Source: Candidatus Hydrogenedens sp. (GTDB lineage: Bacteria; Hydrogenedentota; Hydrogenedentia; Hydrogenedentales; Hydrogenedentaceae). From it: a stretch of DNA of 56,029 nucleotides. Made by a program: the position numbers and the translations under genes. Below are positions 7,364 to 50,307 of the stretch, one piece after another; the stretch's first letter is position 1, and each line of letters opens with the position of its first letter. The stretch covers positions 1-56,029 of the forward strand of contig JBMFRC010000021.1 in the NCBI GenBank assembly GCA_049968235.1, given 5' to 3'. The notes below the pieces were generated by a model, which was not told where the DNA came from, did not search any database, and saw only the letters and a list, made by a program, of their open reading frames with translations.

Positions 7364-7522
7364 TATTTTAACATAAAACCTTAGTTATCAGGTGGAAGTA
7401 TTATATACTTTTTTTGTGATTTCATATAACTCAAATTATTCTTCAAGAAATAAACGATAGGATAGTCTTACCGTAAGTTAAAACCTTTTAAAAAAAAACA
7501 AGCAGACATATATATTAGAAAC

Positions 7523-8175
7523 CTATGAATAAATCATACATGTAAGGTATAGAGGGGGTGTAAATTGATAGAATAAACGAGGGCTTATAAGGGGAAGGAT
7601 TTTTACTATACTTTGACCTATCGTCTCCGCCGGGCTTTTGTTATTTAACGCTCGTTGCTTATGAATATAATTATAGCAATAAATATACGGGTTCAATTTG
7701 TCCATCAATTTTCTATAATCTGTGAAGTAATGTTGTTTTAATAATTCTGTTCTTCTACCATTGAAGTATTGCACTAAGCCATTCGTTTTGAGTGTATAGA
7801 TGCTGTCAGTGTTCTATAACGAGTTCCTGATAGCGATGGTCGAAGATATGTTTACTGGATGGTTGTTTTTCTGCCCCGGCAGAAGCGGTCAGTAAATTCC
7901 TTTCCGTTTTCAGGCAAGACGGTGTAAATTGGATACGGGCAGACTGCCCTCACCTCATCTAAAAACGCTTTAGCACTCTTTGCACTATGGTCATACTTCA
8001 GATAGAACATTGTTTGTAGTTTATGGGGTCGTGATGATTTATCTCTCAAGTCTTCTCGCTTCTTCCATTTCCATATCGTCCTTGTGCTCAGATGCAACCG
8101 TTTTGTAAATGCTGTCATAGGTTTTTTCAATTCATTAATCATCTTTCGCATTTGTAGGGTAGTTCTTGCATACAT
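7523..8175 (-). mobile_element. degraded IS481-family-like (rve integrase) transposase remnant, fragmented into two ORFs (7852-8175 and 7523-7774)
   Basis: ORF 7852-8175 has an HTH-like N-terminus (...LSTRTIWKWKKREDLRDKSSRPHKL, compare IS481 ISRQTFYKWxxRY...DRSRRPH). It then jumps directly into the end of an rve core (...FLDEVRAVCPYPIYTVLPENGKEFTDRF). ORF 7523-7774 carries the transposase C-terminus (...YNYIHKQRALNNKSPAE, compare YNxxRPHsALggktP). The DDE core is mostly deleted and the reading frame is broken, so this is a pseudogenised IS copy. Confidence 0.55.
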
Positions 8176-17617: not shown

Positions 17618-18384
17618 AATGAGACCTCTGAACAATTCGTGTAAGATGTTATGGTATAAGTTATATATGTTTTTACGAGATAAAATCCCGATGAGAAATT
17701 AACATACAAAAGTCTGTATCTCTACTTTTATCCATTTTATTTGCTATTTTCTGTCAGGTTTTTTATTTTCTTATTACCTATGTATATCTTTCCTCTTGCA
17801 CCCTTAATTCCCCATACATCCGCTTCAAATTATATGCAATCGTTAACAGGAAATGATATACTCCTCTCTATATGCACCTCTGTATCCTCTGTGCTCCTCC
17901 GTGTCCTCCGTAGTGAAAAAGATATAATCAACCAGAGAGACACAGAGAAATTATAACTCACTGCTCAACAATACATACAATAGTAAGGACAAAAGCCTCC
18001 ATTATTCCCAGTTCGCTTTATATACTCCTTTCTCTATTATGCACCTCTGCTCAAATTTCCTTCCATTCCATCACTTCTTGCATCTGCCTCAAAAAATATC
18101 TACGACAGATCAGTTTCTGATAGAACATCTCGTAATCTACAAAATCTCTTTGTTCTATCTCTATCTATAAAACTTATTTCCTCCATCTCTTATATACCAT
18201 ACTGCGAGGACCTTTCTTCATTTTTAGTTTTTCCTTGCTTTGTTATTCAAACCAATACAATACCTCTACAATATGTATATGCTATATCCATACACTTCTT
18301 TTTCTCATCTCGTCTCATCTTTTCCTGCCTACTTCTCGTATAAAACATATCTCATTAACCATATGATTTATCCAGAGGTCTCAG
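17618..18384 (+). repeat. MITE-like non-coding element, copy A (~767 bp), with 16-bp terminal inverted repeats TGAGACCTCTGAACAA / TTATCCAGAGGTCTCA
   Basis: Left terminus aaTGAGACCTCTGAACAAttcgtg at 17618. Right terminus ttTATCCAGAGGTCTCAgat ends at 18384. The interior is roughly 80% identical, with indels, to the reverse complement of 37918-38618. For example, cactgctcaacaatacatacaatagtaaggac and ctcttgcatctgcctcaaaa are shared. No conserved ORF is present and the top strand is pyrimidine-rich. Confidence 0.75.
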
Positions 18385-18538: not shown

Positions 18539-20395
18539 TTATAATCCAGGGCAGTAGCGGTCTTCGCCGTCTGGACAAGGATGGTAGCCACCTATGTTAA
18601 AGTACTGGATTAACCGCAATAATTCGGATAGGTTTATCATCCAATCCTGAGGATTATAGTCTGATGCATGCGGTATGCAACTCTTATCCCCTTCAAATCC
18701 AGGAATATAGCCATCCTCTGACTCCTCTCCCGGCAAGGCACAATGATACCCTTGCATATTGAAAAACTGTATCACGCGTAATAACTCGGGTAGATTTATC
18801 TGCCAATCTCCATTTTGGTCTGCACTATGTGATGGTGTTTCCCCCTCGCCTTCAGTCATTCCTTCGCCTTCTACTGCTCCTTCCACGATACCTTCGCCAT
18901 CAGCACTACCTTCGGATATCCCTTCCGTTGTACCTTCGACGGTGCCTTCAACTGTCCCTTCGCCATCAGGGGTTCCTTCGAGAGTCCCTTCTGCGATACC
19001 TTCGCCTTCCATTACTCCTTCACCCTCGATAATTCCTTCGCCTTCAAAACTACCTTCGGATATACCTTCTGTGGTGCCTTCAAATGTCCCTTCGCCATCA
19101 GGGGTTCCTTCGCCTTCGGGTAAGGCAAGACAATCTGTTGGAATTTCGTCCGTATTACGGTTATCAACTGGGTCTAAATAATTCGGAATACCATCATTAT
19201 CTGAATCCCATGGTAACGGGTCATATACATCCCGAATGAGGTCGCAATCGTCGTCTAAATCATCCGGGTCCATCCAACCATCTTCATCAAGGTCGTCATA
19301 AGGTCGCATATATGGTGTAATTCCGATATCTGTGGTAAATATAAACTGTCCATTAGAAAAGTTAATCTCAATAAAGTATGCTTTCCACCCTGTTTCAGGT
19401 GGTATTACTGTTGCAAGATATGTTTTTGAACCGGGTGATGTTTCGCTTAAATTAGAAGATGTCCATGTTGGTCCTGCTCCATCGTAATAGCGGAAATCAC
19501 GAGCATTTGGATTTAGAGCCTGCCATAACTTTACAGAAGTTGGATTTGTTGCCACCTGCACCTGAATACTCCCATCGGGTAAAAATTGCCAGGAATAGTT
19601 AGGTCTGCTTCCGCCACTTGTAACAGAGTTAAAATAGGTAATAAGAGCAATAATACTATTGTAATCACTGGTTAGATTTTCCAGACTATGCCCCGAATTG
19701 GGGACATATCTTAAACGCTTTTCGCCGGGCAGTTCATTGTAATAAAAACGGGAAGAATCGGGTAGGAAAAATTCATCTCCACTGGCATTGATTATAAATT
19801 TTGGCATTGTATAGTTATTCAGGTAAGAATAGGGGTCTACAATCTGTCTCAGGGCATATCCTCCGGGGGTACTCATTCGTTCAAATATATGCAATTCATT
19901 ATAAGGGGTTAATCTCTCTGAGAAGAAGCCATAACATTTGTATTGATGGTCCATCTGAACATTCATCTTAAGGACATCAATTACAATGGGGACAATGGCA
20001 ATGACTCGTGAATCAACCGCTCCCGTTAGCCAAGTAGTCCAACCTCGTTTGGATGCACCCCCAATGACAAAACCACTTATTGTTTTGCCATGATTATTTA
20101 ATACAATCTCTTCGATAGTGTCCATGGCACGGACAGCACTTTTTACCATCGGCAAAAGGACAGGCCAGTAAGGGTCTGGTGTCCCTGCATTATAAGTTTG
20201 CAAATATTTATCAAAACTGTAAGCAATAATTTGGTCCTCTGTCCGACTAAGAGTCTCGTCTTTGAAAAGAAGCGGTTGATTGGGAACCTGTTCAAGTAAT
20301 GCAACAGGAGCACCGGTTAATATTGCAACATACTGAGCATAATCCCGAAGGTTAGTGGCGGAGGAGCCGTTGTTTCCTCCGGATATTATCAACAA
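18539..20395 (-). CDS. PhoPQ-activated pathogenicity-related (PqaA-family, alpha/beta-hydrolase-like) secreted protein with TSP3-like Ca-binding repeats, an (EGx)n linker and two C-terminal dockerin-like repeats; main body downstream of an in-frame TGA
   Basis: VIGGASKRGWTTWLTGAVD is the PqaA-family signature. Then come DDLDEDGWMDPDDLDDDCDL...DSDNDGIPNYLDPVDN (thrombospondin-type-3-like). About 35 Glu-Gly-x triplets follow, encoded by a 9-nt periodic DNA repeat at 18840-19140. Two dockerin-like segments close the protein: DQNGDWQINLPELLRVIQFFN and DYNPQDWMINLSELLRLIQYFN. The same frame continues upstream through TGA at 20447-20449 into ORF 20447-20671. Confidence 0.6.
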   Translation of the reverse strand: MLIISGGNNGSSATNLRDYAQYVAILTGAPVALLEQVPNQPLLFKDETLSRTEDQIIAYSFDKYLQTYNAGTPDPYWPVLLPMVKSAVRAMDTIEEIVLNNHGKTISGFVIGGASKRGWTTWLTGAVDSRVIAIVPIVIDVLKMNVQMDHQYKCYGFFSERLTPYNELHIFERMSTPGGYALRQIVDPYSYLNNYTMPKFIINASGDEFFLPDSSRFYYNELPGEKRLRYVPNSGHSLENLTSDYNSIIALITYFNSVTSGGSRPNYSWQFLPDGSIQVQVATNPTSVKLWQALNPNARDFRYYDGAGPTWTSSNLSETSPGSKTYLATVIPPETGWKAYFIEINFSNGQFIFTTDIGITPYMRPYDDLDEDGWMDPDDLDDDCDLIRDVYDPLPWDSDNDGIPNYLDPVDNRNTDEIPTDCLALPEGEGTPDGEGTFEGTTEGISEGSFEGEGIIEGEGVMEGEGIAEGTLEGTPDGEGTVEGTVEGTTEGISEGSADGEGIVEGAVEGEGMTEGEGETPSHSADQNGDWQINLPELLRVIQFFNMQGYHCALPGEESEDGYIPGFEGDKSCIPHASDYNPQDWMINLSELLRLIQYFNIGGYHPCPDGEDRYCPGL

Positions 20396-20446
20396 ACCTT
20401 TTGTTTTTGTTATCGAAGTAGGGACAATGATTGTTAGCCAGTGTTT

Positions 20447-20671
20447 TCATAATGTCCTATTAACTTCAGAAGAACTTCGCCAGGTCTGAGATGTAAGGTC
20501 CACCACATAGTAAGTATGAGTTATAGTATTCTCCTGTGATGTAATGGTATAAGTGTAGGAAGAGTCAGGCATGTTTACATAATCTTCTAAAGGACCTGCG
20601 TAAGCACAATAAGAAAAAAGAAATGAAAAAATGACAAATGAAAAATAACTTGCGAGATGGCTTTTGCGCAT
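20447..20671 (-). CDS. N-terminal fragment (signal peptide plus first PqaA-family block) of the 18539-20395 gene, separated from it by a single in-frame TGA
   Basis: MRKSHLASYFSFVIFSFLFSYCAYA signal peptide, then GPLEDYVNMPDSSYTYTI, which is typical of the PqaA-family N-terminus. Reading through the TGA gives ...NRTL*KHWLTIIVPTSITKTKGLLIISGGNNGSS... with no frame change. Confidence 0.5.
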   Translation of the reverse strand: MRKSHLASYFSFVIFSFLFSYCAYAGPLEDYVNMPDSSYTYTITSQENTITHTYYVVDLTSQTWRSSSEVNRTL

Positions 20672-21810: not shown

Positions 21811-22485
21811 ATGAGTATTAGTGCGAGTGATGTAAAAAAATTAAGAGAACAAACCAATGCACCCATGATGGATTGTAAAAAAGCACTTATGGAGTGCGGT
21901 GGTGATATGGATAAAGCGGTCAAATGGTTGCGTGAGCGTGGAATTATGAAAGCGGCATCACGTGCAAATCGTGTTGCGGCGGAAGGGTGTATAGCTTCTT
22001 ATGTACACATGGGCGGGAAAATTGGAGTGCTTGTAGAAGTAAACTCAGAAACCGATTTTGTGGCTCGTGGTGCAGAATTTCAAACCTTTGTAAAAGATAT
22101 TTGCCTGCAAATATGTTCTTCCGCACCGAAATGGATTGGCAAAGAGGACATTCCTGCGGAAGCATTAGAAGAAGAAAAACAATTATATGTAAAGCAGGCT
22201 CTGGACACAGGCAAACCTCAGAATGTTTGTGAGAAGATAGCAGAAGGCAAATTGAACAAATGGTTCGAAGAAGTTTGCTTATTAGAACAAGTTTCAGTAA
22301 AGCCTGAACATGATGGTAAAAAGATAAAAGATTTATTAGGCGAATTAACCGCTAAGTGCGGTGAAAAGATAGAAATCCGACGCTTTGTTCGTTGGATTCT
22401 CGGTGAAGGTATCGAAAAGAAACAAACCAATTTTGCAGAGGAAGTTGCCGCAGAATTAGCGAAATCCGCCAATAAAGAGGCATAA
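21811..22485 (+). CDS. tsf: elongation factor Ts (short form)
   Basis: MSISASDVKKLREQTNAPMMDCKKALMECGGDMDKAVKWLRERG is a UBA-like EF-Ts N-terminus. It sits immediately downstream of rpsB, in conserved synteny. Confidence 0.9.
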   Translation: MSISASDVKKLREQTNAPMMDCKKALMECGGDMDKAVKWLRERGIMKAASRANRVAAEGCIASYVHMGGKIGVLVEVNSETDFVARGAEFQTFVKDICLQICSSAPKWIGKEDIPAEALEEEKQLYVKQALDTGKPQNVCEKIAEGKLNKWFEEVCLLEQVSVKPEHDGKKIKDLLGELTAKCGEKIEIRRFVRWILGEGIEKKQTNFAEEVAAELAKSANKEA

Positions 22486-22488
22486 AGA

Positions 22489-23208
22489 GTGAGTATTCCA
22501 ATTTACAAACGGGTATTATTAAAACTCAGTGGAAATGCTTTATCCTCAGATGGGGAGAATATAGGCTCAAAAGCATTAAGTCATCTATGTGATGAAGTTG
22601 CATCGGCATATAAGACCGGTGCTCAGATAGGATTGGTCGTAGGGGGTGGAAATATCCTTCGCGGAAATCAATGGTCAAAAGCATCTGGCGTCGACCGTGC
22701 TACCGCAGATTACATGGGAATGCTTGCTACCGTAATAAATGCTCTTGCCCTTCAATCTGCACTGGAAAAACATGGGCTTGAGACCAGGGTGCTTAGTGCT
22801 ATAGAGATGAGACCGGTGGCAGAACCTTACATAAGACGACGTGCTTTGCGACATTTAGAAAAAGGGCGAATTGTGATTTTTGCTGCAGGGACCGGAAATC
22901 CTTTCCTCACCACTGATACTGCTGCAGCATTACGTGCCAGTGAAATAGATGCAGATATATTGATGAAAGCCACGCGGGTAGATGGGGTTTATTCTGCGGA
23001 CCCGGAAAAAGACCCTACTGCCAGAAGATATGACCATTTAACTTATCAACAGGTTCTTTCACAGGACCTGAAAGTGATGGATGCAGCAGCAATATCTATT
23101 TGTCGTGAAAAGAACATACCTATTTTGGTATTCTCTTTCTTAGAAAAGAACTGTATTGTTCATGCGGTTTGTGGGAACTCTATTGGAACTATAGTTAAGG
23201 GAGATTAA
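22489..23208 (+). CDS. pyrH: UMP kinase
   Basis: [31 protein letters not shown]...[10 protein letters not shown] is the UMP kinase signature. The rpsB-tsf-pyrH-frr order is conserved. Confidence 0.9.
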
Positions 23209-23211
23209 CCT

Positions 23212-23769
23212 ATGTCACACCCACTTATTAAAGAAGCCGAACAAAAAATGGATAAAAGTGTGGAAAGTTTGCAACAAGAACTCTCTGGCTTTCGCACAGG
23301 AAGAGCTACACCTACCTTATTAGATGTTGTTCATGTGGATGCGTATGGCAGTAAAATGAAGATTAATCAATTAGGAAATGTAACTGTCCCGGATTCTCAT
23401 CTTATCGTTATTGACCTCTGGGATAAATCACTTATCGGTGCTGTGGAAAAAGCGATTATGGCTTCACCGCTTGGTGTAAATCCATCGAATGATGGCAGAT
23501 TAATTCGCATACCTATTCCTCCTCTGAGTGAAGAGCGTCGTAAAGAACTTACAAAGGTTGCCAATAAAATGGCAGAAGAAGCCCGTGTTGCTGTTCGCAA
23601 TATTCGCCGTCATATTTTAGAAACCCTGAAAAAAGAGCAGAAAGACGGCAAGATAACCGAAGATGACCTGCATCGCCTTTCAGATGAAGTCCAGAAACTC
23701 ACCGATAAACATATTGAAAAAATAGACCAGGTTCTTAAAGCCAAAGAAAAAGACATAATGGAAGGCTGA
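23212..23769 (+). CDS. frr: ribosome recycling factor
   Basis: 185 aa with ...SGFRTGRATPTLLDVVHVDAYGSKMKINQLGNVTVPD... as the RRF fold signature. The stop is TGA. Confidence 0.9.
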   Translation: MSHPLIKEAEQKMDKSVESLQQELSGFRTGRATPTLLDVVHVDAYGSKMKINQLGNVTVPDSHLIVIDLWDKSLIGAVEKAIMASPLGVNPSNDGRLIRIPIPPLSEERRKELTKVANKMAEEARVAVRNIRRHILETLKKEQKDGKITEDDLHRLSDEVQKLTDKHIEKIDQVLKAKEKDIMEG

Positions 23770-25479: not shown

Positions 25480-26595
25480 ATGTATGAATTAGAAATACAA
25501 GCGATAGAAAACTTAAAACAGCGATTGGTAGAACTCCGTACCTGCTTGAATGTAGAAGGGATACAGGAACGAATTGCGAAGTTGGAACGGAGTATGGAAG
25601 ATTCGGAGTTCTGGAATGACCCCGAACAGGCACAAAAAGTTTTGCAGGAGATTAAGAATTTAAAAACAGTTATAGAAACCCCGGAAACACTTCAGAAAGA
25701 ACTGGAAGATGCGGAAGCATTTGTTCGTATGGCTGAAGAGGAAGCGGATATATCCCTTCAATTGGAAATACAGCAGTTGAAAGATAGGTTAGAAAAAGAA
25801 GTTCATCAATTGGAAATCAAAAGCCTATTCATAGACCCGCGAGATACCAAACCCGCTATTGTTAGTTTTCATCCGGGGGCAGGTGGAACGGAATCTTGCG
25901 ATTGGGCACAAATGCTTTATCGCATGATTACACGATACTGTGAAGAGAAAGGTTTTACCGTTGAATTAATAGATTATCAACCGGGGGAAGAGGCGGGTAT
26001 TAAAAGTGCCACGCTACGGGTGTCTGGTCTTTATGCATACGGTTTATTAAAATCCGAAAGTGGTGTGCATCGTCTCGTCCGTATTTCCCCATTCGATGCA
26101 AATAAGAGACGGCATACCTCTTTTACTGCCATTGAGGTGCTTTCAGAGGTAGATGACGATATAAAGATAGAAATTCGTGAAGAAGATATAAAAATGGATA
26201 CTTTCCGTTCCAGTGGTGCAGGCGGACAGAAAGTAAATAAAACCAGTTCAGCTGTCCGACTAACACATGTGCCCACAGGTTTCGTCGTTACCTGTCAAAT
26301 TGAGCGTTCACAACACCGCAATCGTGCTACTGCACTACAAATGCTCAAAGCGAAGTTGTATGATATTGAGATGAAAAAAAAGGAAGCAGAAGTTTTCGCT
26401 CAAAGAGAAGGACAAACGGAAGTTGCCTGGGGTAATCAGATTCGAAGTTATATCCTTCAACCTTATCAACTGGTTAAAGACCATAGAACCGGTGCGGAAA
26501 CCAGTAATGTAGATAGGGTTTTGGATGGAGATTTAGATATATTTGTAGAAGCTTACTTAAAATGGAATTTAGAAAAGAAAGGTGTGGGAATCTAA
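25480..26595 (+). CDS. prfB: peptide chain release factor 2, encoded in a single continuous frame (no programmed +1 frameshift site)
   Basis: SPF tripeptide (RISPFDANKRRHTSF) and GGQ (SSGAGGQKVNKTSSAVRLTHVPTG). The N-terminus MYELEIQAIENLKQRLVELRTCLNVEG is contiguous with the body. No CTT-TGA-C shifty site is present. Confidence 0.9.
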   Translation: MYELEIQAIENLKQRLVELRTCLNVEGIQERIAKLERSMEDSEFWNDPEQAQKVLQEIKNLKTVIETPETLQKELEDAEAFVRMAEEEADISLQLEIQQLKDRLEKEVHQLEIKSLFIDPRDTKPAIVSFHPGAGGTESCDWAQMLYRMITRYCEEKGFTVELIDYQPGEEAGIKSATLRVSGLYAYGLLKSESGVHRLVRISPFDANKRRHTSFTAIEVLSEVDDDIKIEIREEDIKMDTFRSSGAGGQKVNKTSSAVRLTHVPTGFVVTCQIERSQHRNRATALQMLKAKLYDIEMKKKEAEVFAQREGQTEVAWGNQIRSYILQPYQLVKDHRTGAETSNVDRVLDGDLDIFVEAYLKWNLEKKGVGI

Positions 26596-32908: not shown

Positions 32909-34246
32909 ATGTTCTGGCAAAATAGAAAATTACTTTTTGTTTTTACAGCAATTATTGTCGGCGTAATTATTTTTATTCTTCTGGTTTCTTTTTTACGAGA
33001 GCGACAGCATAACCAACAGGTCTTTGTAGAACGAGGACAAACACTATTGCAAATTCTTTCCTCCTCTTTATCACTTCAAACACGCATGGGCTGTTATCGT
33101 GCCCAGCGAGTTGTGGAAATAATAAATAGTGTTTCGTTATCCCCGGGTATTTTGTATGTAGCGTTATTAAATCATGAAGGGAAAATAATTGCCAGTGCAG
33201 GTGAAACATCCGTCTCCCCAATAAATAAAATTGCAAAAGGAAAACATATTTATTGGGATAACGAATGTGTTTGTTTATCACAAACGATTTCTATGGACGA
33301 ACTTCAAAAAGGTCGTCAACACCGATATGGAATGGCAGTATGTCCTGACCCAACATGTGCAAATGAAAGTATGATTCCCTGGAGTGAATGGGGAACGGGT
33401 CCTTTTCTTCTGATGGTTTGTCTGAATACTCAAGAATTGAAAGGAATGAACAAATCAACCTCTATTCGGTTTGGGATATTTGCCCTGTTGAGTATGGGCA
33501 TAAGTATATTGGGCTTTGTTGTTCTGGAATTGTATCAACGAAAAGAATTGTATGCTTATGACCTAAAATTAACCCGGGAAAAAGCAAGATATAACGAACA
33601 TTTAGCACAAATAGGGGCAGGACTGGCACATGAGACAAAAAACCCATTAAGCATTGTTCGTGGGCTTGCTCAGGCAATACAGGAGGAAGTGGAGCCAATT
33701 TCAGATGCATATAAATATGCCAGTAAAATAATTGATGAGACAGACCGTTCTGTCCGGCAGATAAACAATTTTTTGGAACTGACACATCCTCATACTCCCG
33801 AAAAGAAACCTATCTCTTTACAATCTATCATTGAACAGTTGTTGAATTTGACAGATACAGATATAAAAAATAAAGGCATTTCCATTGAAGTAAAAGGAAC
33901 AGATATAACCATAGAAGCAGACCCCGAATATCTTCGTCGTGCTTTGTTAAATCTCCTTCTGAATGCAATACAGGCATGTTCCGCAGGAGATAAAATTACC
34001 CTTCAAATAGAACCCCTCGGCGATTGGATAGCCCTTCACATTATAGATACAGGAGTCGGTATTTCAGCAGAAGATTTACCTCATGTAGTAAAGCCGTATT
34101 ATTCCAAACGGAAAGGAGGCACAGGGCTTGGTTTGAGTATTGTAAATGAAATAGTTCTATTGCATGGATGGGAATTTTCTATCCAATCTCAAAAGGGAGA
34201 AGGAACAAAGGTAACTATTTCCCATATCCGCCGAATTAACAGTTGA
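32909..34246 (+). CDS. sensor histidine kinase with Cys-containing periplasmic sensing domain
   Basis: TM1 LLFVFTAIIVGVIIFILLVSF. The periplasmic ~150 aa include ...DNECVCLSQ...MAVCPDPTCANES.... TM2 IRFGIFALLSMGISILGFVVL. HisKA LAHETKNPLSIVRG. HATPase ...GVGISAEDLPHVVKPYYS...GGTGLGLSIVNEIV. Confidence 0.8.
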   Translation: MFWQNRKLLFVFTAIIVGVIIFILLVSFLRERQHNQQVFVERGQTLLQILSSSLSLQTRMGCYRAQRVVEIINSVSLSPGILYVALLNHEGKIIASAGETSVSPINKIAKGKHIYWDNECVCLSQTISMDELQKGRQHRYGMAVCPDPTCANESMIPWSEWGTGPFLLMVCLNTQELKGMNKSTSIRFGIFALLSMGISILGFVVLELYQRKELYAYDLKLTREKARYNEHLAQIGAGLAHETKNPLSIVRGLAQAIQEEVEPISDAYKYASKIIDETDRSVRQINNFLELTHPHTPEKKPISLQSIIEQLLNLTDTDIKNKGISIEVKGTDITIEADPEYLRRALLNLLLNAIQACSAGDKITLQIEPLGDWIALHIIDTGVGISAEDLPHVVKPYYSKRKGGTGLGLSIVNEIVLLHGWEFSIQSQKGEGTKVTISHIRRINS

Positions 34247-34303
34247 GGTATGTTTATAGTATGATGAATAAAATATAGAGATGAAATACCCTTTGTTAAT
34301 TCC

Positions 34304-35614
34304 ATGAAAAAAGAAAACGCAGAAAAAGTAATTCTACTTGTTGATGATGATAATGCTCAGAGAGAATTACTCTCTCGCTATCTAACTCGGGCAGGCTTTT
34401 CTGTCCTTGCTGTTGCTAATTACAAAGATGCAAAGCCCCTTTTCGGACATGCACATCTTATTCTTCTGGATGTTCGTCTGCCGGATGCCAATGGGGTGGA
34501 GAAAATACCGGAGATAAAGGAACAGTTTCCGGGAATTCCTGTGATTTTGCTCACCGCTTTTATTGATGTCCGCGATGCCGTTCAGGCAATTAGACAGGGT
34601 GCTGTGGATTACCTTGAAAAGCCTGTAGATTTAGATGAGTTAATTGAAGTAATCCAAGAACAGCTGGGAACACTTCCGACAGATAGGACAGAAGATAGCG
34701 AATTGCCGGAAGACTTTATCTGTTATAGCACATCCATGCAAAAAGTGGTGCAGGATTGCCTTCGTGTATCTCCCACCAAAGCCACAGTGCTTATTACCGG
34801 AGAAAGTGGTGCAGGGAAAGAATGGATAGCAAGACTTATTCACCAATTTAGTGAGCGTAAAAATAAACCTCTTGTTGTTATAGATTGCACACATCTGCCA
34901 GAAACACTTGCAGAAAGTATTTTGTTTGGTCATGAACCCGGCGCTTTCACAGGGGCTATAACACAACAAAAAGGGCAACTTGAAGAGGCTAATGGAGGAA
35001 CTCTTTTTTTGGATGAAGTAGGAGAATTGCCCCTATCAGTGCAACCAAAACTATTGCGTGTTCTGGAAGGGTCACCTTTCCGAAGGATTGGTGGGACAAA
35101 AGATATACATGTTGACCTGCGTATTATTTCTGCGACCAATCGGAATTTAGAAACAGAGGTGCAGGAAGGAAAATTTCGTCAGGATTTGTTCTATCGCCTT
35201 CATGTAATCACCATTCATGTCCCTCCTTTACGAGAACGAGTAGATGATATTCTACCTCTGGCAGAATTTTTTTTGAAGCCGTATAACAAAACTTTATCAC
35301 CATCCGTACAGAGATTACTCCTCCGCTATCCGTGGTTCGGAAATGTTCGCGAATTAAGAAATGCTATGGAACGTTCTGCTATTCTTGCTAATGGTCCCAT
35401 GATTATGCCCGAAGACCTTCCAGAGATTATTCAAAATTATTCACCTTCCGATGAATCCCATCAGCCCCCTTCTTCATTACGATTGGATGAGTTAGAACGG
35501 GAGGCGATTCTTAACGCATTAAAAGAAGCAGGGGGAAATCGAACACGAACTGCGGAAATTTTAGGAATTAGTAGACGTACACTTATATATAAATTGCGGG
35601 CATACGGGTTATAA
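34304..35614 (+). CDS. sigma-54-dependent response regulator (NtrC family bacterial enhancer-binding protein)
   Basis: Receiver domain (ILLVDDDNAQRELL...LILLDVRLPDANG). AAA+ sigma-54 activation domain with Walker A GESGAGKE, the GAFTGA loop (HEPGAFTGA) and ESELFGHE-like ESILFGHE. C-terminal Fis-type HTH (GGNRTRTAEILGISRRTLIYKLRAYGL). Confidence 0.85.
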   Translation: MKKENAEKVILLVDDDNAQRELLSRYLTRAGFSVLAVANYKDAKPLFGHAHLILLDVRLPDANGVEKIPEIKEQFPGIPVILLTAFIDVRDAVQAIRQGAVDYLEKPVDLDELIEVIQEQLGTLPTDRTEDSELPEDFICYSTSMQKVVQDCLRVSPTKATVLITGESGAGKEWIARLIHQFSERKNKPLVVIDCTHLPETLAESILFGHEPGAFTGAITQQKGQLEEANGGTLFLDEVGELPLSVQPKLLRVLEGSPFRRIGGTKDIHVDLRIISATNRNLETEVQEGKFRQDLFYRLHVITIHVPPLRERVDDILPLAEFFLKPYNKTLSPSVQRLLLRYPWFGNVRELRNAMERSAILANGPMIMPEDLPEIIQNYSPSDESHQPPSSLRLDELEREAILNALKEAGGNRTRTAEILGISRRTLIYKLRAYGL

Positions 35615-35660
35615 TTTGTTTTATAATGAGGATAGGTAAATTACTTTTGTAGGACATTGT

Positions 35661-36908
35661 ATGAATATCCATGAACACCAACCATACCCTCCTTTAAGAA
35701 ATATCGAGGCATTCCCCATTCATCATCAAGGACAAACACTTATCTGCCTTCATGACCCACTGGGATATGTAAACACCGAAATTACACTCTCACCCGCTGC
35801 ATTCTTTATTGCCGCATGTCTGGATGGAAATCATACCTCGCGGGATATTCAACTGGAATTTGCTCGTGAATTTCAAGGGGCTTTAATCCCTCGTGAACAG
35901 ATAGAAAAAATAGTTGAGTTCCTGGATGAACATGGCTTCCTCCTAAATGAACGCTTCGAGGAAATTAAAAGCAAAACAGAAAAGGATTTTTTACAGCAAG
36001 TTGTTCGCCTTCCTTATCATGCAGGGCAATCTTATTCTTCTGCAAAGCATGAATTGGGTGCCTTTTTATCCACAATTTTTACACGAACAGGGGGACCGGG
36101 ACCTTTGCCCGATAAACAACAATCTTCTGAGGATTGTATGGTCGGTTTAATTGTTCCACATATTGATTTTCAACGGGGTGCTCTGGGTTATGCCCATGCC
36201 TACTATCGACTTTATCAATGTAAAAAACCGGATACAGTTATTATCTTTGGGGTAAGTCATCAAGGGGGAGAAACACCTTATATCTTAACACGCAAACATT
36301 ACAGCACACCTTTAGGAACTATTAAAACACATCAGGATTGTGTTGAGTATTTAGCCCAGAATTCACAATTCGACCCGTTCAAATCTGAAATTATGCATCG
36401 TATGGAACATTCCATTGAATTTCAGGTGCTAATGTTGAATTATCTCTTTGGCACAGATATTCAGATAGTCCCTGTGTTATGTACCTCTATTTCAGAAGAT
36501 AGAGAACTCTCCCCAGAGGATATTCCGGAAATCCAACAATTTCTGCAAACATGTATCCAATATATCGAACATAGTGGAGAGCGAGTATTGGTCTTGTCTG
36601 CATCAGATTGGGCACATGTCGGAAAACGATTCGGTGACTCGTTTGATATTACCGAAGATATTCAAATTCAGATAAAAAACCGCGATGACGAAGACATAAA
36701 AGTAGCTTTAAATATAAACCCGGAGCATTTTTTCCATTCTGTTATGAAAGACAAAAACAGCCGTCGAGTATGTGGATTATACTCTATTTATTCTACATTG
36801 AAAGTCATAAAAGGAACCGCACACCGTGCTGAATTTCTGCATTATGGACAAGCCCCTGACCCTATTGGCGGGATTGTCTCCTTTTCAAGTATTGCCTACT
36901 TTAAGTAA
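35661..36908 (+). CDS. fusion protein with an N-terminal PqqD-like (RiPP-recognition-element-like) domain and a C-terminal MEMO1 / AmmeMemoRadiSam-protein-B-like domain
   Basis: MEMO signatures: MVGLIVPHIDFQRGALGYAHAY (compare GxIxPHAGYxYSG), MEHSIEFQVLMLNYLF (compare EHSxExQLPFL) and LSASDWAHVGKRFGD (compare SsDfSHyG). The N-terminal residues ~30-95, EITLSPAAFFIAACLDGNHTSRDIQLEFAREFQGALIPREQIEKIVEFLDEHGFLL, align by eye with PqqD ([29 protein letters not shown]...DDVVEFLQ...WI). Confidence 0.6.
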   Translation: MNIHEHQPYPPLRNIEAFPIHHQGQTLICLHDPLGYVNTEITLSPAAFFIAACLDGNHTSRDIQLEFAREFQGALIPREQIEKIVEFLDEHGFLLNERFEEIKSKTEKDFLQQVVRLPYHAGQSYSSAKHELGAFLSTIFTRTGGPGPLPDKQQSSEDCMVGLIVPHIDFQRGALGYAHAYYRLYQCKKPDTVIIFGVSHQGGETPYILTRKHYSTPLGTIKTHQDCVEYLAQNSQFDPFKSEIMHRMEHSIEFQVLMLNYLFGTDIQIVPVLCTSISEDRELSPEDIPEIQQFLQTCIQYIEHSGERVLVLSASDWAHVGKRFGDSFDITEDIQIQIKNRDDEDIKVALNINPEHFFHSVMKDKNSRRVCGLYSIYSTLKVIKGTAHRAEFLHYGQAPDPIGGIVSFSSIAYFK

Positions 36909-36917
36909 GGTGTAAAG

Positions 36918-37916
36918 ATGAATAGGAATACTATTTTGCTTATATTATTCTTCGGAATTATTTGTAATTTGCCCTGCCAATCGTATCATACCTTGATCGA
37001 CTTACATACCGCACCGGGATGGGCTTCGGAAAATGGTGGGACAACAGGCGGAGGAAAATCAAAACCTACTACAATTAAAACGATAGAAGAACTTCAAACT
37101 CTGGTCTCTACAGAAGAACCACAAACAATACTTGTAAGTGGGACCATGGGAGCAGGACTTTCTACAAAAATAAAAGTAAACTCAAACAAGACTATCATGG
37201 GTTTAGACAAGGCACTTATAAAAGGCAGTTTTACCATTAAAGATGCAAAAAACATTATCATCCGGAATTTGACGATTGAGGGTCCCGGTGCCATTGATGT
37301 GAATGCTCCATACTGTATTACAATAGATAATTCAACAAATATATGGTTAGACCATCTTGATATATACGATGGTTAGGATGGAAATGTTGATATTGTTAAT
37401 GGTTCTAACTACATTACCATATCATGGTGCAAGTTCCATTATACTTCTGCTTCGAAAAATCATAAATTGTCAACACTCATTGGTAATTCAGATGAAAAAA
37501 TATCCGACAGAGGAAAATTGAAAACTACAATGGTATATAACTGATGGGCAGAAGGCGTTGATTCGCGTACGCCAAGAGTTCGCTTTGGACAGGTGCATGT
37601 CATAAACAATCTCTACACATGCACAGAAAATGATTACTGCATTCTGGCAGGCATGGAAGCAAACTTGAGAATCGAATATAATTTATTTGTAAATGTAAGA
37701 GAACCTATCAATTTATCTCAAAAAACATTTACTGCTGTTAGCGACTCAAACAATAAATTCCTATCAGTCAAAGGGAACACTGAGGGAAAAGGAGACGCCT
37801 TTAAGCCCCCCTATAATATAACCATTATCCCATTAAATAAATTAGAAATGATTATAAAAAAGTATGCAGGAGCCAATCTTCCTCATATTAAAAACGAAAT
37901 ATTCTGTGAACAATAG
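36918..37916 (+). pseudogene. pectate lyase (polysaccharide lyase family 1) with two in-frame nonsense codons (TAG 37374-37376, TGA 37542-37544) and no frameshift
   Basis: Signal peptide, then GWASENGGTTGGGKS...ILVSGTM...IKVNSNKTIMGL...IIRNLTIEG...IWLDHLDIYDG*DGNVDIVNGSNYITISWCKFHYTSASKNHKLSTLIGNSDEKISDRGKLKTTMVYN*WAEGVDSRTPRVRFGQVHVINNLYT.... This closely parallels Bacillus or Erwinia PL1 motifs (GYASxNGGTTGG, vWIDHxxfs...DGxxDIkxgSdyVTvSwn.F..HdKxmLiGhSD, RMPRVRFGqvHvyNNYY). The track reports only the flanking pieces 36918-37376 and 37593-37916. Confidence 0.7.
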
Positions 37917-37917
37917 A

Positions 37918-38618
37918 ATGAGACCTCTGAATAAGTCATTCGAGTTAAGTAGTATATTTATATAGGGGAAGAGGATGGGTGGAAAATGAAACGAGAAGAG
38001 GGAAAAGTGGTATATATATAGCAGAAGTATTGGGGGATGAATGACAAAACAAGGAAGAACTAAAAATAAAGAAAGGTCAACGCAGTATGGTATATAAGGG
38101 ATGGAGGGAATAAGTTTTATAGATAGAGATAGAGCAAATAGATTTTATATATTATGTGATGTCCTATCATAAACCGCCCCGTCGTAGACGTCTTTTGAGG
38201 CAGATGCAAGAGGTAATACCATAAAGGAATTTTGAGCAGAGGTGCGTATAGAGAAGAGTATATAAAGTAAACTGGGAAGAACGGAGACTTCCATCTTTAC
38301 TATTGTGTGCATTGTTGAGCAGTGAGTGATGATTTCTTTATATTCTCTTTGCAGGGAATTTAATCGGTGGCGGTAAAACGATTTTTTTCTACGTTTCTCT
38401 ATGTCTTCTATGGTGATTATATTTTTAATTCCAAAGGGAGCAAAAGGAGAAATATGCATAGACAAAAAAGATAGAAAAATAGACAGAAAATAACAAATAA
38501 AATGGGTAATTTTAGAGATACAGAATTTTGTATTTTAATTTCTCACCGTGATTTTATCTCATAAAAACATATATAACTTATACCCTTACCTCTTACACCA
38601 CTTGTTCAGAGGTCTCAG
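37918..38618 (-). repeat. MITE-like non-coding element, copy B (~701 bp), inverted relative to copy A; same TIRs TGAGACCTCTGAAYAA
   Basis: Left terminus aaTGAGACCTCTGAATAAgtc at 37918, 1 bp after the PL1 stop. Right terminus cttgTTCAGAGGTCTCAgtt at 38603-38618. The reverse complement aligns with 17618-18384, for example gtataagttatatatgtttttatgagataaaatcacggtgagaaatt versus gtataagttatatatgtttttacgagataaaatcccgatgagaaatt. Confidence 0.75.
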
Positions 38619-38710
38619 TTGCATAAAAAGATATTTTTTAATTAATTTAAATTTGACATTTGCGGAAATAAGTTATAAAATAAAAGTAATATAAAATAGC
38701 AAAATATGTT

Positions 38711-39733
38711 ATGCAAAACAAGGGGTTTACGCTGATTGAGTTGTTGGTAGTCATCGGGATTATTGCAATTTTGGGTGCTATTCTTTTACCGGCATTGGCA
38801 AGGGCACGTGAAGCAAGTCGTCGTGCAAGTTGTCAAAATAATCTTAAACAATGGGGTAGCATTTTTAAGATGTATGCTAATGAGAATAAAGCGGAACGCT
38901 ATCCACCTGTTCAGATAGAAATTATGCCTTTATCTGACCGTCCTAATCGTATGGATGCTTTTGCTGCACCGGGTCCGATGGTTCATTGTATTTATCCGGA
39001 ATACCTTACAGACCCTTCAATTATTATCTGTCCTTCGGATGCTCAGGACTCTATTCGGGATTTAAAATTTACTGAGGATACTTCTTTTGCTCGTGCAGGC
39101 GATTGGAAGTTTCCCTATTATCTCTGGGAGAAGGGTTGTGTTACAGCCATATCTGCAAGCTATATCTATTATGGATGGGTTCTGGACCGAATGGGTTCGA
39201 GACCGGAAGAAGTTGCGGTATTAAATACATTGCCGGAGATTAGTATTCTTATTAGCCTCTTAGGAGCGGATTTTTATGCAGAATATACTTTTCCGATACA
39301 GTTTATTATGTCTGCTTATCAGTTAGCATCGAACAATCTGGTTGCTGTGGAAGGATTATTAGACCCGGCATCGGCTACGGAGGAACAACGAAAAGCAATC
39401 CGTGATGCCCTTGACCAGGATATAACCGGTCCTTCAATTCAACAATATCATTGTGGGAATGGTGGTGGGAATACGGTGTATCGAATGCGGGAAGGTATCG
39501 AGCGATTTATGATAACGGACATTAATAATCCGGGTGTTGGAGCACTTGCGCAGAGTGAGATTATAGTTATGTTTGACCAGATAGGTTCTCAGCAGGGAAT
39601 ATCTTTGTATAATCATATTCCCGGTGGTTGCAATGTATTGTATATGGATGGGCATGTGGAATTTATCCGATATCCAACAAAAGCCCCTGCTATTGAACCT
39701 GTAGTTAATACACTATTGTTATTGTTTTACTAA
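38711..39733 (+). CDS. DUF1559-family protein with prepilin-type N-terminal cleavage/methylation domain (pseudopilin-like)
   Basis: [49 protein letters not shown] is a type IV prepilin leader plus the hydrophobic helix and SCxNNLKQ motif typical of DUF1559. C-terminal ...[15 protein letters not shown]. Confidence 0.85.
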
Positions 39734-47345: not shown

Positions 47346-47455
47346 AATATACAAAAAATCTTTGCATGGTTTTTAACCTTTTGATATACTTACTTTCAAA
47401 GAGAATGAACGATATACGCAAATAAAAAACATATAAAACAAAGAGGATACATGTA

Positions 47456-48708: not shown

Positions 48709-49371
48709 ATGAAACAGATTTTTTTCTCACTAATACTATTACTTTTTTCCTGTTCTATTTTTTGTTCCTGTATCCCCAGTCAACCAACACCGCCCCCCCC
48801 CCCTGAAATGGCTGAACCTGGCTCTTCATCCGTCCCCAATTCTCCCCCACAAAATACCCCCGACTCAACAACTACCCCTGTTCCGGAAAACAAATCGAAT
48901 CCGGATATTTCAAAAAAGGCATCGGAAACATCCGCATCTATAGACAAGAAATCTAAAGCCACAGTGCGTTTTGGGGTAGCGGGAGCAGGATTTCCTTTCT
49001 CCATTCAACAAACACCCCTCGTTGGACAGGAAGGATTTTCTATAAAAGGTTCTTTTGGGCTCAATGGCACCATAACCCGTCCGGACAAAACCAAAGATTT
49101 ATGGGTATTTTCCGGACAATTTGAACTCCCTTCTGAAGATTATAAAATTGGTGAAGTAACTTATGATGTTCTCAATGCACCCATAGAATACTATACACAA
49201 AAGAAGCCTTTACCCCCCACGCTCATTCCTCAGGTCATGATAACTATACCCGTAAAATTACCGCCTAACGCAAAAGATGAAAAGGGAAATGTAAAAGTTC
49301 CTTTTCATCTTGAAATTCCTGTCTCTGCAAAAGCCCAGTTCCTTTTCACACTGGTAGATAAATCTTCTTAA
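48709..49371 (+). CDS. putative lipoprotein with Pro-rich linker
   Basis: MKQIFFSLILLLFSCSIF is a signal peptide with a lipobox-like LFSC. A Pro/Ser/Thr-rich linker follows, then a beta-rich domain. The coding sequence contains a C11 homopolymer at 48793-48803. Confidence 0.55.
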   Translation: MKQIFFSLILLLFSCSIFCSCIPSQPTPPPPPEMAEPGSSSVPNSPPQNTPDSTTTPVPENKSNPDISKKASETSASIDKKSKATVRFGVAGAGFPFSIQQTPLVGQEGFSIKGSFGLNGTITRPDKTKDLWVFSGQFELPSEDYKIGEVTYDVLNAPIEYYTQKKPLPPTLIPQVMITIPVKLPPNAKDEKGNVKVPFHLEIPVSAKAQFLFTLVDKSS

Positions 49372-49377
49372 CCCGAT

Positions 49378-50307
49378 ATGGAACATCCTAAAGAAGAAAA
49401 GAGAATTGATTCTTATATCCGCACATCAGAGGGACTGCGATTGGAAAAACCTTCCTTAAAAGAGTTATGTCAGAGATATAATATTCGTTTCAAAAAACGA
49501 TTGGGACAGAATCTTCTCCTCGATGATAATATCCACCGTATTATGGTGGAATCATCTTATCTGAGCCGGGATGATGCAGTAATTGAAGTAGGTGCCGGAT
49601 TGGGTGCTCTTACCTGGCACCTGGTCCAACATGCAGGGCAAGTACTGGCTGTGGAAATAGACCCCTCTTTTATCCCTTGTTTACAGGACCGATTTGGACA
49701 CTTGCCTTATGTAAAATTATTCCGCGGGGATATATTAAATCACAAATTAGAAGAACTTGTTCGTGAATTTATCCCTGATGCACAACATTACAAGATGCTT
49801 TCAAATTTGCCCTACTATATTACTACCCCTATTCTATTCCAATTTTTAGAATCTGCAGTAAATTTTGAATTGATTGTCATCATGGTCCAATATGAAGTTG
49901 GGTTAAGAATGTCCGCAAGATTTGGTACTAAAGATTATGGGGTATTAAGTCTTGCTGTGCAGTCTTTATATCATGTAGATTTGGTGCATTCTGTTCCACG
50001 AACCTGTTTTATTCCGCGTCCCGAGGTTGACAGCTGCATTGTTCGACTGCGAAAAATTGTGCCTCCTCTCATGTCTGAAGATAAAAGGAAAAAAGTACTT
50101 CGGATTGTTCACTCCGCTTTTTCCCAACGGAGAAAAAGTCTCAAAAATGCGTTGAGTAAATCTCCTCTGTTGCACTATTCGCCTGCACAGGTGTTATCCG
50201 CATTGCAAGATACAGGCATTGACCCATCTCGTCGCGCGGAAACATTAACATGGCAGGATTTTGTTCTACTCACGGAAGCCTTAGAAAAGATTGAACCGAA
50301 ACCTTAA
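49378..50307 (+). CDS. rsmA: 16S rRNA (adenine1518/1519-N6)-dimethyltransferase
   Basis: KRLGQNLLLDDNIHRIM matches the KsgA GQNFLxD motif. VIEVGAGLGALT is the SAM-binding motif I. It carries an N-terminal extension of ~33 aa. Confidence 0.85.
   Translation: MEHPKEEKRIDSYIRTSEGLRLEKPSLKELCQRYNIRFKKRLGQNLLLDDNIHRIMVESSYLSRDDAVIEVGAGLGALTWHLVQHAGQVLAVEIDPSFIPCLQDRFGHLPYVKLFRGDILNHKLEELVREFIPDAQHYKMLSNLPYYITTPILFQFLESAVNFELIVIMVQYEVGLRMSARFGTKDYGVLSLAVQSLYHVDLVHSVPRTCFIPRPEVDSCIVRLRKIVPPLMSEDKRKKVLRIVHSAFSQRRKSLKNALSKSPLLHYSPAQVLSALQDTGIDPSRRAETLTWQDFVLLTEALEKIEPKP

What the first reader, a model, noticed from the sequence alone, without database searches (positions are those of the whole stretch)
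36918..37916. Pectate lyase gene kept in frame but punctuated by two nonsense codons (TAG and TGA)
The three pieces read in one continuous frame and align through the PL1 core, including the catalytic-site region WLDHLDIYDG*DGNVDIVNGSNYITISW and ...KLKTTMVYN*WAEGVDSRTPRVRFGQVHVINNLYT. There are no indels, and the two stops are different. The codon count shows both stops add positions to the frame rather than replacing conserved residues. Two independent nonsense hits without any frameshift in a 1 kb gene is either recent pseudogenisation or a sign of stop-codon readthrough or suppression. A third in-frame TGA occurs in the PqaA-like gene (separate finding).
Basis: seen in the sequence. Interest (0 to 1): 0.55.

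Follow-up and report, generated by a model that had tools for sequence, protein, structure and literature searches.

The report
Dead pectate lyase gene, two nonsense mutations
This is an ordinary broken copy of a pectin-degrading enzyme gene in an uncultured Candidatus Hydrogenedens bacterium: two single-base changes made stop codons and an essential catalytic residue is also lost, so it does not point to an unusual genetic code.

Summary
Window 36918-37916 (+) is one 333-codon frame with in-frame TAG (37374-37376, codon 153) and TGA (37542-37544, codon 209) and no indels.

- **Family and orthologues.** It is a PL1 pectate lyase. Intact 327-332 aa orthologues exist in Candidatus Hydrogenedens, best 78% identity, with the same upstream gene order.
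- **The stops replace residues.** Codon 153 is Gln in 13/13 close homologues and CAG in both orthologue DNAs. Codon 209 is Trp in 55/60 homologues and TGG in both.
- **Catalytic damage.** An Asp invariant in 60/60 homologues, equivalent to Ca2+ ligand D122 of VdPelB, is Tyr here (GAC>TAC). An independent 99.93%-identical sibling assembly has the same Tyr.
- **No recoding.** An intact prfB (RF2) lies in the window. Seven genes end in TGA and two in TAG. There are 246 TGG codons against two in-frame TGA. The third in-frame TGA, in the PhoPQ_related gene, is TGG in a sibling strain.

Verdict: a decaying pseudogene. Consensus error at the two stops cannot be excluded without reads. Side observations are a 700-bp inverted-repeat element just 3' of both stop-bearing genes and a G:C>A:T excess against siblings.

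The parts
36918..37916 (+). PL1 pectate lyase pseudogene (333 codons, signal-peptide-like N-terminus, two internal stops)
   Evidence: frame. (PF00544, 97.8 bits). (PDB 3zsc, 1.3e-32). (intact 327-332 aa orthologues, 78% identity). (conserved HisKA - sigma54 regulator - Memo - pel gene order).
37374..37376 (+). In-frame TAG, codon 153, derived from CAG (Gln). It lies directly before Ca2+ ligand Asp154.
   Evidence: A1 has Gln in 13/13 close homologues. L004 and L007 have CAG. The aligned residue in VdPelB precedes D151.
37542..37544 (+). In-frame TGA, codon 209, derived from TGG (Trp)
   Evidence: Trp in 55/60 homologues. L004 and L007 have TGG.
37311..37313 (+). TAC (Tyr132) in place of the invariant Asp (GAC/GAT in orthologues), equivalent to Ca2+ ligand D122 of VdPelB. 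Sibling assembly L001 has the same codon.
   Evidence: Asp in 60/60 homologues. Codons. L001 is identical here, since the only mismatch in the pel part is at 37302. Role of D122 from bioRxiv 10.1101/2022.11.09.515409, with the alignment.
37569..37571 (+). ACG (Thr218) in place of Met (58/60 homologues, ATG in orthologues), next to catalytic Arg217
37302..37302 (+). Strain polymorphism inside pel: window A (Asn129), sibling G (Asp129)
37919..38617 (+). 699-bp non-coding element with 18-nt terminal inverted repeats (MITE-like). It starts 3 nt after the pel stop codon and marks the point where synteny with relatives ends.
   Evidence: repeat of 17620-18383. (alignment A2). (inverted terminal repeats). 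(no Rfam match). Sibling contigs L002 and L003 begin inside it.
17620..18383 (-). Second copy of the same element (764 bp), 156 nt 3' of the PhoPQ_related gene, in the same orientation relative to that gene
   Evidence: No conserved ORF.
18539..20671 (-). PhoPQ_related (PqaA-like) gene with one in-frame TGA (codon 75, + strand 20447-20449). It is TGG in the sibling assembly.
   Evidence: (PF10142, 1.4e-118). (the sibling gene is called through the site). (window T, sibling C at 20447).
25480..26595 (+). Intact prfB (release factor 2) followed by lysS, which shows that UGA is read as stop in this organism
   Evidence: TIGR00020, 515.7 bits, cut-off 370. (gene order in the sibling).

Best explanation
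The locus is a non-functional, decaying copy (pseudogene) of a secreted PL1 pectate lyase in a Candidatus Hydrogenedens population.

The ancestral gene was an intact enzyme of about 330 aa in a conserved HisKA - sigma54 regulator - Memo - pel arrangement. In this lineage the gene lost constraint.
- The first Ca2+-coordinating Asp became Tyr (GAC>TAC). This change is already present in a sibling strain.
- Met218, beside the catalytic Arg, became Thr.
- Two ordinary G:C>A:T transitions turned Gln153 (CAG) into TAG and Trp209 (TGG) into TGA.

Inferred consequence: translation ends at codon 153. The product would be a 152-residue N-terminal fragment lacking Asp154, Asp158, Lys183, Arg217 and Arg222. 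No pectate lyase is made.

The stops are read as stops. The organism has RF2 and uses TGA and TAG to end other genes. The absence of frameshifts is a small-sample outcome, not a signal.
For: Shown:
- One frame with two stops.
- PL1 identity.
- Intact orthologues with conserved upstream gene order.
- Both stops lie in ungapped conserved columns and differ by a single base from orthologue codons: CAG>TAG, TGG>TGA.
- D132Y at a residue that is Asp in 60/60 homologues and equals Ca2+ ligand D122 of VdPelB. Independent sibling assembly L001 has the same Tyr.
- M218T at a column that is Met in 58/60 homologues.
- 15 window-specific changes at conserved columns, against 4 on the P0001 path and 10 on the P0002 path.
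- Pairwise dN/dS for pel is 0.13-0.14 with the window and 0.096 between the two orthologues. Flanking genes give 0.05-0.14.
- prfB is intact.
- Stops of 37 gene models: 28 TAA, 7 TGA, 2 TAG.
- Only 3 in-frame stops in 16,795 codons, with 246 TGG and 262 CAG codons.
- The third TGA is TGG in a strain 99.9% identical.

Inferred:
- Termination at codon 153 and loss of activity.
- The order of the mutational events.
Against: - No reads were available, and no sibling contig covers 37363-38028. Neither stop is independently replicated, so each could be a consensus error.
- There are no indels in 1 kb, and pairwise dN/dS is still well below 1. Inactivation is therefore recent relative to the divergence from the orthologues. 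Taken alone, the D132Y change could reflect altered function rather than death.
- Only 56 kb of the genome was seen. A suppressor tRNA elsewhere cannot be excluded.
Confidence: 0.8

Rival explanations
1. One or both stops are sequencing or consensus artefacts (or minority alleles promoted into the consensus of a metagenome-assembled genome), and the gene in the cells has an open frame.
For: - Compared with two sibling assemblies over about 33 kb, the window shows 13 transitions where the window has A/T and the sibling has G/C, against 2 in the reverse direction (binomial p=0.007).
- Coding differences are 11 missense, 1 nonsense and 4 synonymous, which is roughly the unselected expectation. 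This pattern fits cytosine-deamination damage or base-calling error as well as very recent mutation.
- Both pel stops are of the same G:C>A:T type.
- The stops lie in the only stretch that no sibling contig covers. Contig L001 ends 12 nt before the TAG.
Against: - The Tyr at the invariant Asp position is replicated in an independent assembly. The gene is catalytically compromised whether or not the stops are real.
- The window-versus-sibling difference density is about 1 per 1.6 kb. Two errors 170 nt apart that both create stops would be improbable.
- No shared sequence motif is visible around the variant sites.
- No frameshifted gene is seen among the 37 gene models.
Confidence: 0.13
2. The stops are decoded: programmed readthrough, suppressor tRNAs or partial code reassignment (TAG as Gln, TGA as Trp) yields a full-length protein.
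For: - The stops sit exactly where Gln and Trp are conserved. These are the amino acids assigned to TAG and TGA in known variant codes.
- A further in-frame TGA lies at a Trp codon in another gene.
- UGA is known to be somewhat leaky through near-cognate tRNA-Trp (established knowledge).
Against: - CAG>TAG and TGG>TGA are also the only one-step transitions that make these stops, so the match is expected for plain mutation.
- prfB is intact. Loss of prfB is a canonical marker of UGA reassignment (bioRxiv 10.64898/2025.12.01.691617).
- TGA ends 7 genes and TAG ends 2.
- There are 2 in-frame TGA against 246 TGG, and 1 in-frame TAG against 262 CAG.
- The third TGA is TGG in a 99.9%-identical strain.
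- No tRNA gene occurs in the window or in six sibling loci.
- No Rfam match, including SECIS families, at E<=1 in 36500-39000.
- A read-through product would still carry Tyr at the Ca2+-ligand position.
Confidence: 0.03
3. The stops belong to a burst of cytosine-deamination mutagenesis in this strain (for example loss of uracil repair, or exposure to a DNA deaminase toxin) and not to slow background decay.
For: - The asymmetry of G:C>A:T changes against siblings is 13:2 (p=0.007).
- The ratio of non-synonymous to synonymous differences is near the neutral expectation (12:4).
- 9 of 15 changes are in a 5'-TC context (p=0.02) and 14 of 15 in a 5'-[A/T]C context (p=0.003).
- One confirmed and two probable nonsense changes are of this type.
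Against: - The sample is small.
- Of the 8 sites that two siblings can polarise, only 3 of the 5 window-specific changes are C>T.
- G:C>A:T is the commonest spontaneous mutation in bacteria anyway, and recent differences between close strains typically look unselected (established knowledge).
- The same pattern could be a sequencing artefact.
- D132Y (G>T) and M218T (T>C) are not of this type.
Confidence: 0.07

Closest known systems
PL1 pectate lyases (Pfam PF00544), e.g. Thermotoga maritima PelA (PDB 3zsc), Verticillium dahliae VdPelB (PDB 7bbv) and intact Candidatus Hydrogenedens orthologues (P0001, P0002)
   Same: - Full-length collinear similarity: E=1.3e-32 to 3zsc and 78% identity to P0001.
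- Same length and the same upstream gene neighbourhood as the orthologues.
- It retains the equivalents of VdPelB D151, D155, K175, R208 and R213, namely D154, D158, K183, R217 and R222.
   Different: - Two premature stops, at Gln153 and Trp209.
- Tyr replaces the invariant Ca2+-ligand Asp (VdPelB D122).
- Thr replaces the near-invariant Met218.
- It is a dead member of the family, not an enzyme.
Bacterial pseudogenes formed by nonsense point mutation in dispensable or accessory genes
   Same: - Single-base G:C>A:T transitions at CAG and TGG codons.
- Additional damaging missense changes.
- Location at a synteny breakpoint beside a repeat element.
- Intact orthologues in relatives.
   Different: Nothing essential differs. 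The only slightly unusual point is two nonsense changes and no indel, which is compatible with chance for so few events.
UGA-to-Trp (code 4) and UAG-to-Gln (code 15) reassignments
   Same: In-frame TGA aligns with Trp, and in-frame TAG aligns with Gln.
   Different: - prfB is present.
- TGA and TAG are used as genuine terminators.
- In-frame stops are confined to 2 of 37 genes.
- One of them is polymorphic between near-identical strains.
- No suppressor tRNA was seen.

Membership tests
PL1 pectate lyase (PF00544) | Sequence match to the family profile above the curated threshold | tested here: met
   PF00544 scores 97.8 bits against a cut-off of 24. 25 PDB PL1 chains match, best 3zsc at 1.3e-32.
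PL1 pectate lyase (PF00544) | Acidic Ca2+-binding triad (VdPelB D122, D151, D155) | tested here: not met
   D154 and D158 are present. The D122 equivalent is Tyr132, where 60/60 homologues have Asp.
PL1 pectate lyase (PF00544) | Catalytic Arg base and substrate-binding Lys/Arg (VdPelB R208, K175, R213) | tested here: met
   R217, K183 and R222 are conserved in alignments A1 and A3 and in the 7bbv alignment.
PL1 pectate lyase (PF00544) | Uninterrupted reading frame encoding the whole beta-helix | tested here: not met
   TAG at codon 153 and TGA at codon 209.
PL1 pectate lyase (PF00544) | Right-handed parallel beta-helix fold | not tested
   No structure prediction was run. The fold is implied only by sequence similarity to solved PL1 structures.
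UGA-to-Trp reassigned genetic code (code 4) | [quoted passage not shown] | tested here: not met
   Intact prfB at 25480-26595: TIGR00020, 515.7 bits, cut-off 370. The marker is described in bioRxiv 10.64898/2025.12.01.691617.
UGA-to-Trp reassigned genetic code (code 4) | UGA widespread at conserved Trp positions and not used as a terminator | tested here: not met
   2 in-frame TGA against 246 TGG in 37 gene models. 7 genes end in TGA. One in-frame TGA is TGG in a sibling strain.
UGA-to-Trp reassigned genetic code (code 4) | tRNA-Trp with UCA anticodon (or a modified tRNA-Trp CCA) | not testable with these tools
   No tRNA gene occurs in the window or in six sibling loci. The rest of the genome is not available.
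UAG-to-Gln reassignment / amber suppression | In-frame TAG recurrent at Gln positions, with a tRNA(CUA) | tested here: not met
   1 in-frame TAG against 262 CAG and 407 CAA codons. 2 genes end in TAG. No tRNA was found. prfA and the rest of the genome were not seen.
Selenoprotein (UGA = Sec) | UGA at a Cys/Sec-aligned position, with a SECIS hairpin | tested here: not met
   The column is Trp in 55, Tyr in 4 and His in 1 of 60 homologues, never Cys. No Rfam match at E<=1 in 36500-39000.
MITE-like non-autonomous transposable element (for 37919-38617) | Terminal inverted repeats, small size, no coding capacity, several copies | tested here: met
   18-nt arms, 94% complementary. 699 and 764 bp, two copies at 77% identity. 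No conserved ORF.
MITE-like non-autonomous transposable element (for 37919-38617) | Target-site duplication and a related autonomous element | tested here: inconclusive
   No direct repeat is evident at the flanks on reading alignment A2. A conserved 25-mer found nothing in genome contigs or metagenome contigs.

The most novel reading that the evidence does not exclude
The window strain may carry the footprint of a recent, largely unselected burst of cytosine-deamination mutagenesis in a wild Hydrogenedens population. The evidence is an excess of G:C>A:T transitions in 5'-[A/T]C context compared with near-identical sibling strains. Such a burst, for example from a uracil-repair defect or a DNA-deaminase toxin, would have produced the premature stops in both secreted-protein genes. 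Separately, both of those genes are followed at their 3' ends by the same 700-bp inverted-repeat element. That could mean the element marks or causes silenced, dispensable loci.
Probability: 0.07. Interest if true: 0.5.

Novelty: new member of a known kind. Interest (0 to 1): 0.1.

Why it matters
- **Annotation.** The locus should be labelled a pectate lyase pseudogene. It should not count towards the pectin-degrading capacity of this Hydrogenedens population, and it is not evidence for an alternative genetic code.
- **General lesson for genome scans.** In-frame TAG at Gln and TGA at Trp are exactly what plain CAG>TAG and TGG>TGA mutations produce. The match to known recodings carries no weight unless release factors, tRNAs and genome-wide codon use agree.
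- **Leads.** The strain-level G:C>A:T excess and the repeat element next to both broken genes are minor leads. They are not findings.

Tried and rejected
1. **Looking for the same region in other assemblies.** The window's 152-aa and 107-aa pel fragments are not on record. The repaired full-length and partial variants are not on record either. A 44-nt pattern around the TAG with N at the variable base found nothing in genome contigs or metagenome contigs. The two sibling assemblies both lack 37363-38028, so the stops could not be checked in a second genome.
2. **Extending sibling coverage to the first 19 kb.** Four further exact-protein look-ups failed.
3. **Global recoding.** Rejected on prfB, terminator usage and codon counts.
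4. **Selenocysteine or pyrrolysine.** Rejected because the columns are Trp and Gln, not Cys or Lys, and there is no Rfam match.
5. **Other apparent same-frame ORF pairs split by one stop.** tsf/pyrH/frr at 21811-23769, 48709-50307 and Memo/pel are separate, tightly packed genes with distinct Pfam families. The pair at 386-1054 is non-coding-looking sequence antisense to a long - strand gene.
6. **A methylation-motif base-calling artefact.** No shared motif surrounds the variant sites.
7. **Remnants of the relatives' downstream genes (DUF4411, Peptidase_M78) in 37917-38710.** None was found by tblastn.
8. **A structured RNA in the downstream element.** No Rfam match, at E<=1 locally or at gathering score window-wide.
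9. **A repeat explaining why sibling contig L001 stops at 37362.** None was found.
10. **Literature on Hydrogenedentes with pectate lyase or stop-codon recoding.** Nothing relevant.

Full report
**1. The observation**

Window 36918-37916 on the + strand reads as one frame of 333 codons. It has an in-frame TAG at 37374-37376 (codon 153) and an in-frame TGA at 37542-37544 (codon 209). The terminal TAG is at 37914-37916. All three pieces belong to one PL1 pectate lyase.
- With X at the stops, the translation matches Pfam PF00544 at 97.8 bits, against a cut-off of 24.
- It matches 25 solved PL1 chains. The best are Thermotoga maritima PelA 3zsc (E=1.3e-32) and Verticillium dahliae VdPelB 7bbv (E=2.8e-28).
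- It matches 609 database proteins. The best are intact 327-332 aa pectate lyases named Candidatus Hydrogenedens sp., at 78% and 77% identity over 98% of the length.

The coordinates, the frame, the two different stops and the absence of indels are therefore correct and far beyond chance.

**2. What the stops replace**

- In the alignment with 13 close homologues (A1) both stops sit in ungapped columns. Codon 153 is Gln in 13/13. Codon 209 is Trp in 12/13.
- In a wider alignment of 60 homologues (A3), codon 209 is Trp in 55.
- In the DNA of two orthologues (L004, L007) the codons are CAG and TGG.

Each stop is therefore a single G:C>A:T transition (CAG>TAG, TGG>TGA).

**3. Orthology and context**

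The orthologues sit in the same HisKA - sigma54 response regulator - Memo - pel arrangement as in the window. Synteny ends exactly at the 3' end of pel. The relatives have DUF4411 and Peptidase_M78 genes there. The window has about 800 bp of non-coding DNA followed by a prepilin-type DUF1559 protein.

A sibling protein is annotated 'MAG: Candidatus Hydrogenedens sp.'.

**4. Further damage**

Asp132 is invariant in 60/60 homologues. In the window it is Tyr, TAC against GAC/GAT in the orthologues.
- From the 7bbv alignment together with the multiple alignment, this column is D122 of VdPelB.
- The VdPelB paper describes D122 as one of the residues that directly coordinate the catalytic Ca2+, together with D151 and D155. 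R208 is the base, and K175 and R213 bind substrate (bioRxiv 10.1101/2022.11.09.515409).
- The window keeps the equivalents D154, D158, K183, R217 and R222.
- It also has Thr in place of Met218, which is Met in 58/60 homologues and lies next to R217.

The Tyr codon is also present in an independent assembly. Contig JBMFLO010000270.1 of GCA_049971155.1 (L001) is 99.93% identical to window 32994-37362, and its only difference inside pel is at 37302. The catalytic lesion is therefore real and older than the split of these strains.

**5. Tempo**

At columns conserved in seven outgroup sequences, the window has 15 private changes including the two stops. The path to P0001 has 4 and the path to P0002 has 10.

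Pairwise dN/dS for pel is 0.143 and 0.132 in the pairs that include the window, and 0.096 between the two orthologues. The three upstream genes give 0.05-0.14.

My inference is that most of the divergence (dS about 0.9) happened under purifying selection. Constraint was then relaxed late on the window lineage, but well before the 0.06% divergence between the sibling strains. Two nonsense changes and no indel is an unremarkable outcome for so few events.

**6. Is the code unusual?** No.
- The window carries rpsB-tsf-pyrH-frr-uppS-cdsA and an intact prfB followed by lysS. prfB scores 515.7 bits on TIGR00020, against a cut-off of 370.
- Loss of prfB, a tRNA-Trp(UCA) and UGA aligned to Trp genome-wide are the canonical markers of UGA reassignment (bioRxiv 10.64898/2025.12.01.691617).
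- The 37 gene models end in TAA 28 times, TGA 7 times and TAG 2 times.
- In 16,795 codons covering 90% of the window there are 246 TGG, 262 CAG and only three in-frame stops. Two are in pel and one is in the PhoPQ_related gene.
- That third stop is codon 75, at + strand 20447-20449. It is TGG in sibling contig L008, where the gene is called straight through the site.
- No tRNA gene is present in the window or in six sibling loci.
- No Rfam family matches.

**7. Can the stops be artefacts?**

I could not test this directly. Both sibling assemblies have contig breaks that leave 37363-38028 uncovered. No other copy is in the collections.

Over the roughly 33 kb that siblings do cover, the differences are:

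| Type of difference | Count |
|---|---|
| Transitions with A/T in the window and G/C in a sibling | 13 |
| Transitions in the reverse direction | 2 |
| Transversions | 4 |
| Homopolymer indel | 1 |

- The 13:2 asymmetry has binomial p=0.007.
- Within genes the differences are 11 missense, 1 nonsense and 4 synonymous. For G:C>A:T changes in this window the unselected expectation is 67% missense, 6.7% nonsense and 27% synonymous.
- Counting the two pel stops as well, 9 of 15 changes are in 5'-TC context and 14 of 15 in 5'-[A/T]C (p=0.02 and p=0.003).
- Only 8 sites can be polarised by two siblings. There, 3 of the 5 window-specific changes are C>T.

The pattern fits very recent unpurged mutation, DNA damage or base-calling error, or a deamination-prone strain. 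It does not discriminate among them. Whatever the answer, the replicated D132Y change means the gene does not encode a normal enzyme.

**8. Surroundings**

The non-coding stretch starting 3 nt after the pel stop is a 699-bp element (37919-38617).
- It has 18-nt terminal inverted repeats, TGAGACCTCTGAATAAGT / ACTTGTTCAGAGGTCTCA.
- A second copy (17620-18383, 764 bp, 77% identical overall) lies 156 nt 3' of the PhoPQ_related gene, in the same orientation relative to that gene.
- It has no conserved ORF and no Rfam match.
- A conserved 25-mer was not found in the genome or metagenome collections.
- Sibling contigs L002 and L003 start inside it, which explains those assembly breaks. The end of L001 at 37362 remains unexplained.

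Both copies in the window flank the only two genes with premature stops. That is noteworthy but rests on two cases. The simplest reading is that insertions and gene decay are both tolerated at dispensable, rearrangement-prone loci.

**9. Verdict**

This is an ordinary, fairly young pseudogene of a PL1 pectate lyase. It is not a recoding signal. Interest is low.

Noticed in passing
window 37919-38617 and 17620-18383: Two copies (77% identical) of a roughly 700-bp non-coding element with 18-21 nt terminal inverted repeats. Each lies just 3' of, and in the same orientation relative to, one of the only two genes in the window with premature stops (pel and PhoPQ_related). A lone inverted-repeat-like site is at 7517-7537.
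   Followed up: partly
window 20447-20449 (- strand gene 18539-20671): The in-frame TGA of the PhoPQ_related (PqaA-like) gene is a strain polymorphism. Sibling assembly GCA_049971155.1 has TGG (Trp) at the same codon in otherwise 99.9%-identical DNA.
   Followed up: yes
window 19074-56029 against L001, L002, L003, L008, L009, L010: Differences from two sibling assemblies are strongly asymmetric: 13 transitions with window A/T and sibling G/C, against 2 in the reverse direction. They are mostly non-synonymous (12 of 16 coding) and mostly in 5'-[A/T]C context. The cause could be a recent mutation burst, DNA damage or a platform artefact. It is undecided.
   Followed up: partly
window 37362 (end of L001): Sibling contig JBMFLO010000270.1 ends 12 nt before the TAG codon. 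No repeat or divergent tail explains the break. Both sibling assemblies lack 37363-38028.
   Followed up: partly
L005 7068-8717 compared with L007 7070-8697: In relatives, the DUF4411 and Peptidase_M78 genes just downstream of pel are whole in L007 (164 and 378 aa). They are split in L005 (95+53 and 60+295 aa) and partly split in L004. The same synteny breakpoint therefore carries broken genes in other lineages too.
   Followed up: no
window 47386-47424 compared with L009 4546-4574: Sibling contig L009 aligns to the window in two blocks that overlap by 39 window bases, with 27 extra bases between them. This suggests a short tandem duplication or insertion in the sibling in the intergenic region before 47715.
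   Followed up: no
window 21811-23769: tsf, pyrH and frr lie in the same reading frame, and each start codon immediately follows the previous stop codon. On a mechanical scan this mimics a single gene with in-frame TAA stops, but they are three distinct genes.
   Followed up: yes
window 19025-19073 compared with the start of L008: The 3' part of the PhoPQ_related gene encodes a long Glu/Gly/Thr-rich repetitive linker. The sibling contig ends there with a cluster of mismatches, probably a repeat-induced assembly problem.
   Followed up: no
window 38653-38681: A near-consensus sigma-70-like promoter (TTGACA, 17 nt spacer, TAAAAT; 11 of 12 matches) lies directly after the right end of the inverted-repeat element and 30 nt upstream of the 38711 gene.
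   Followed up: no
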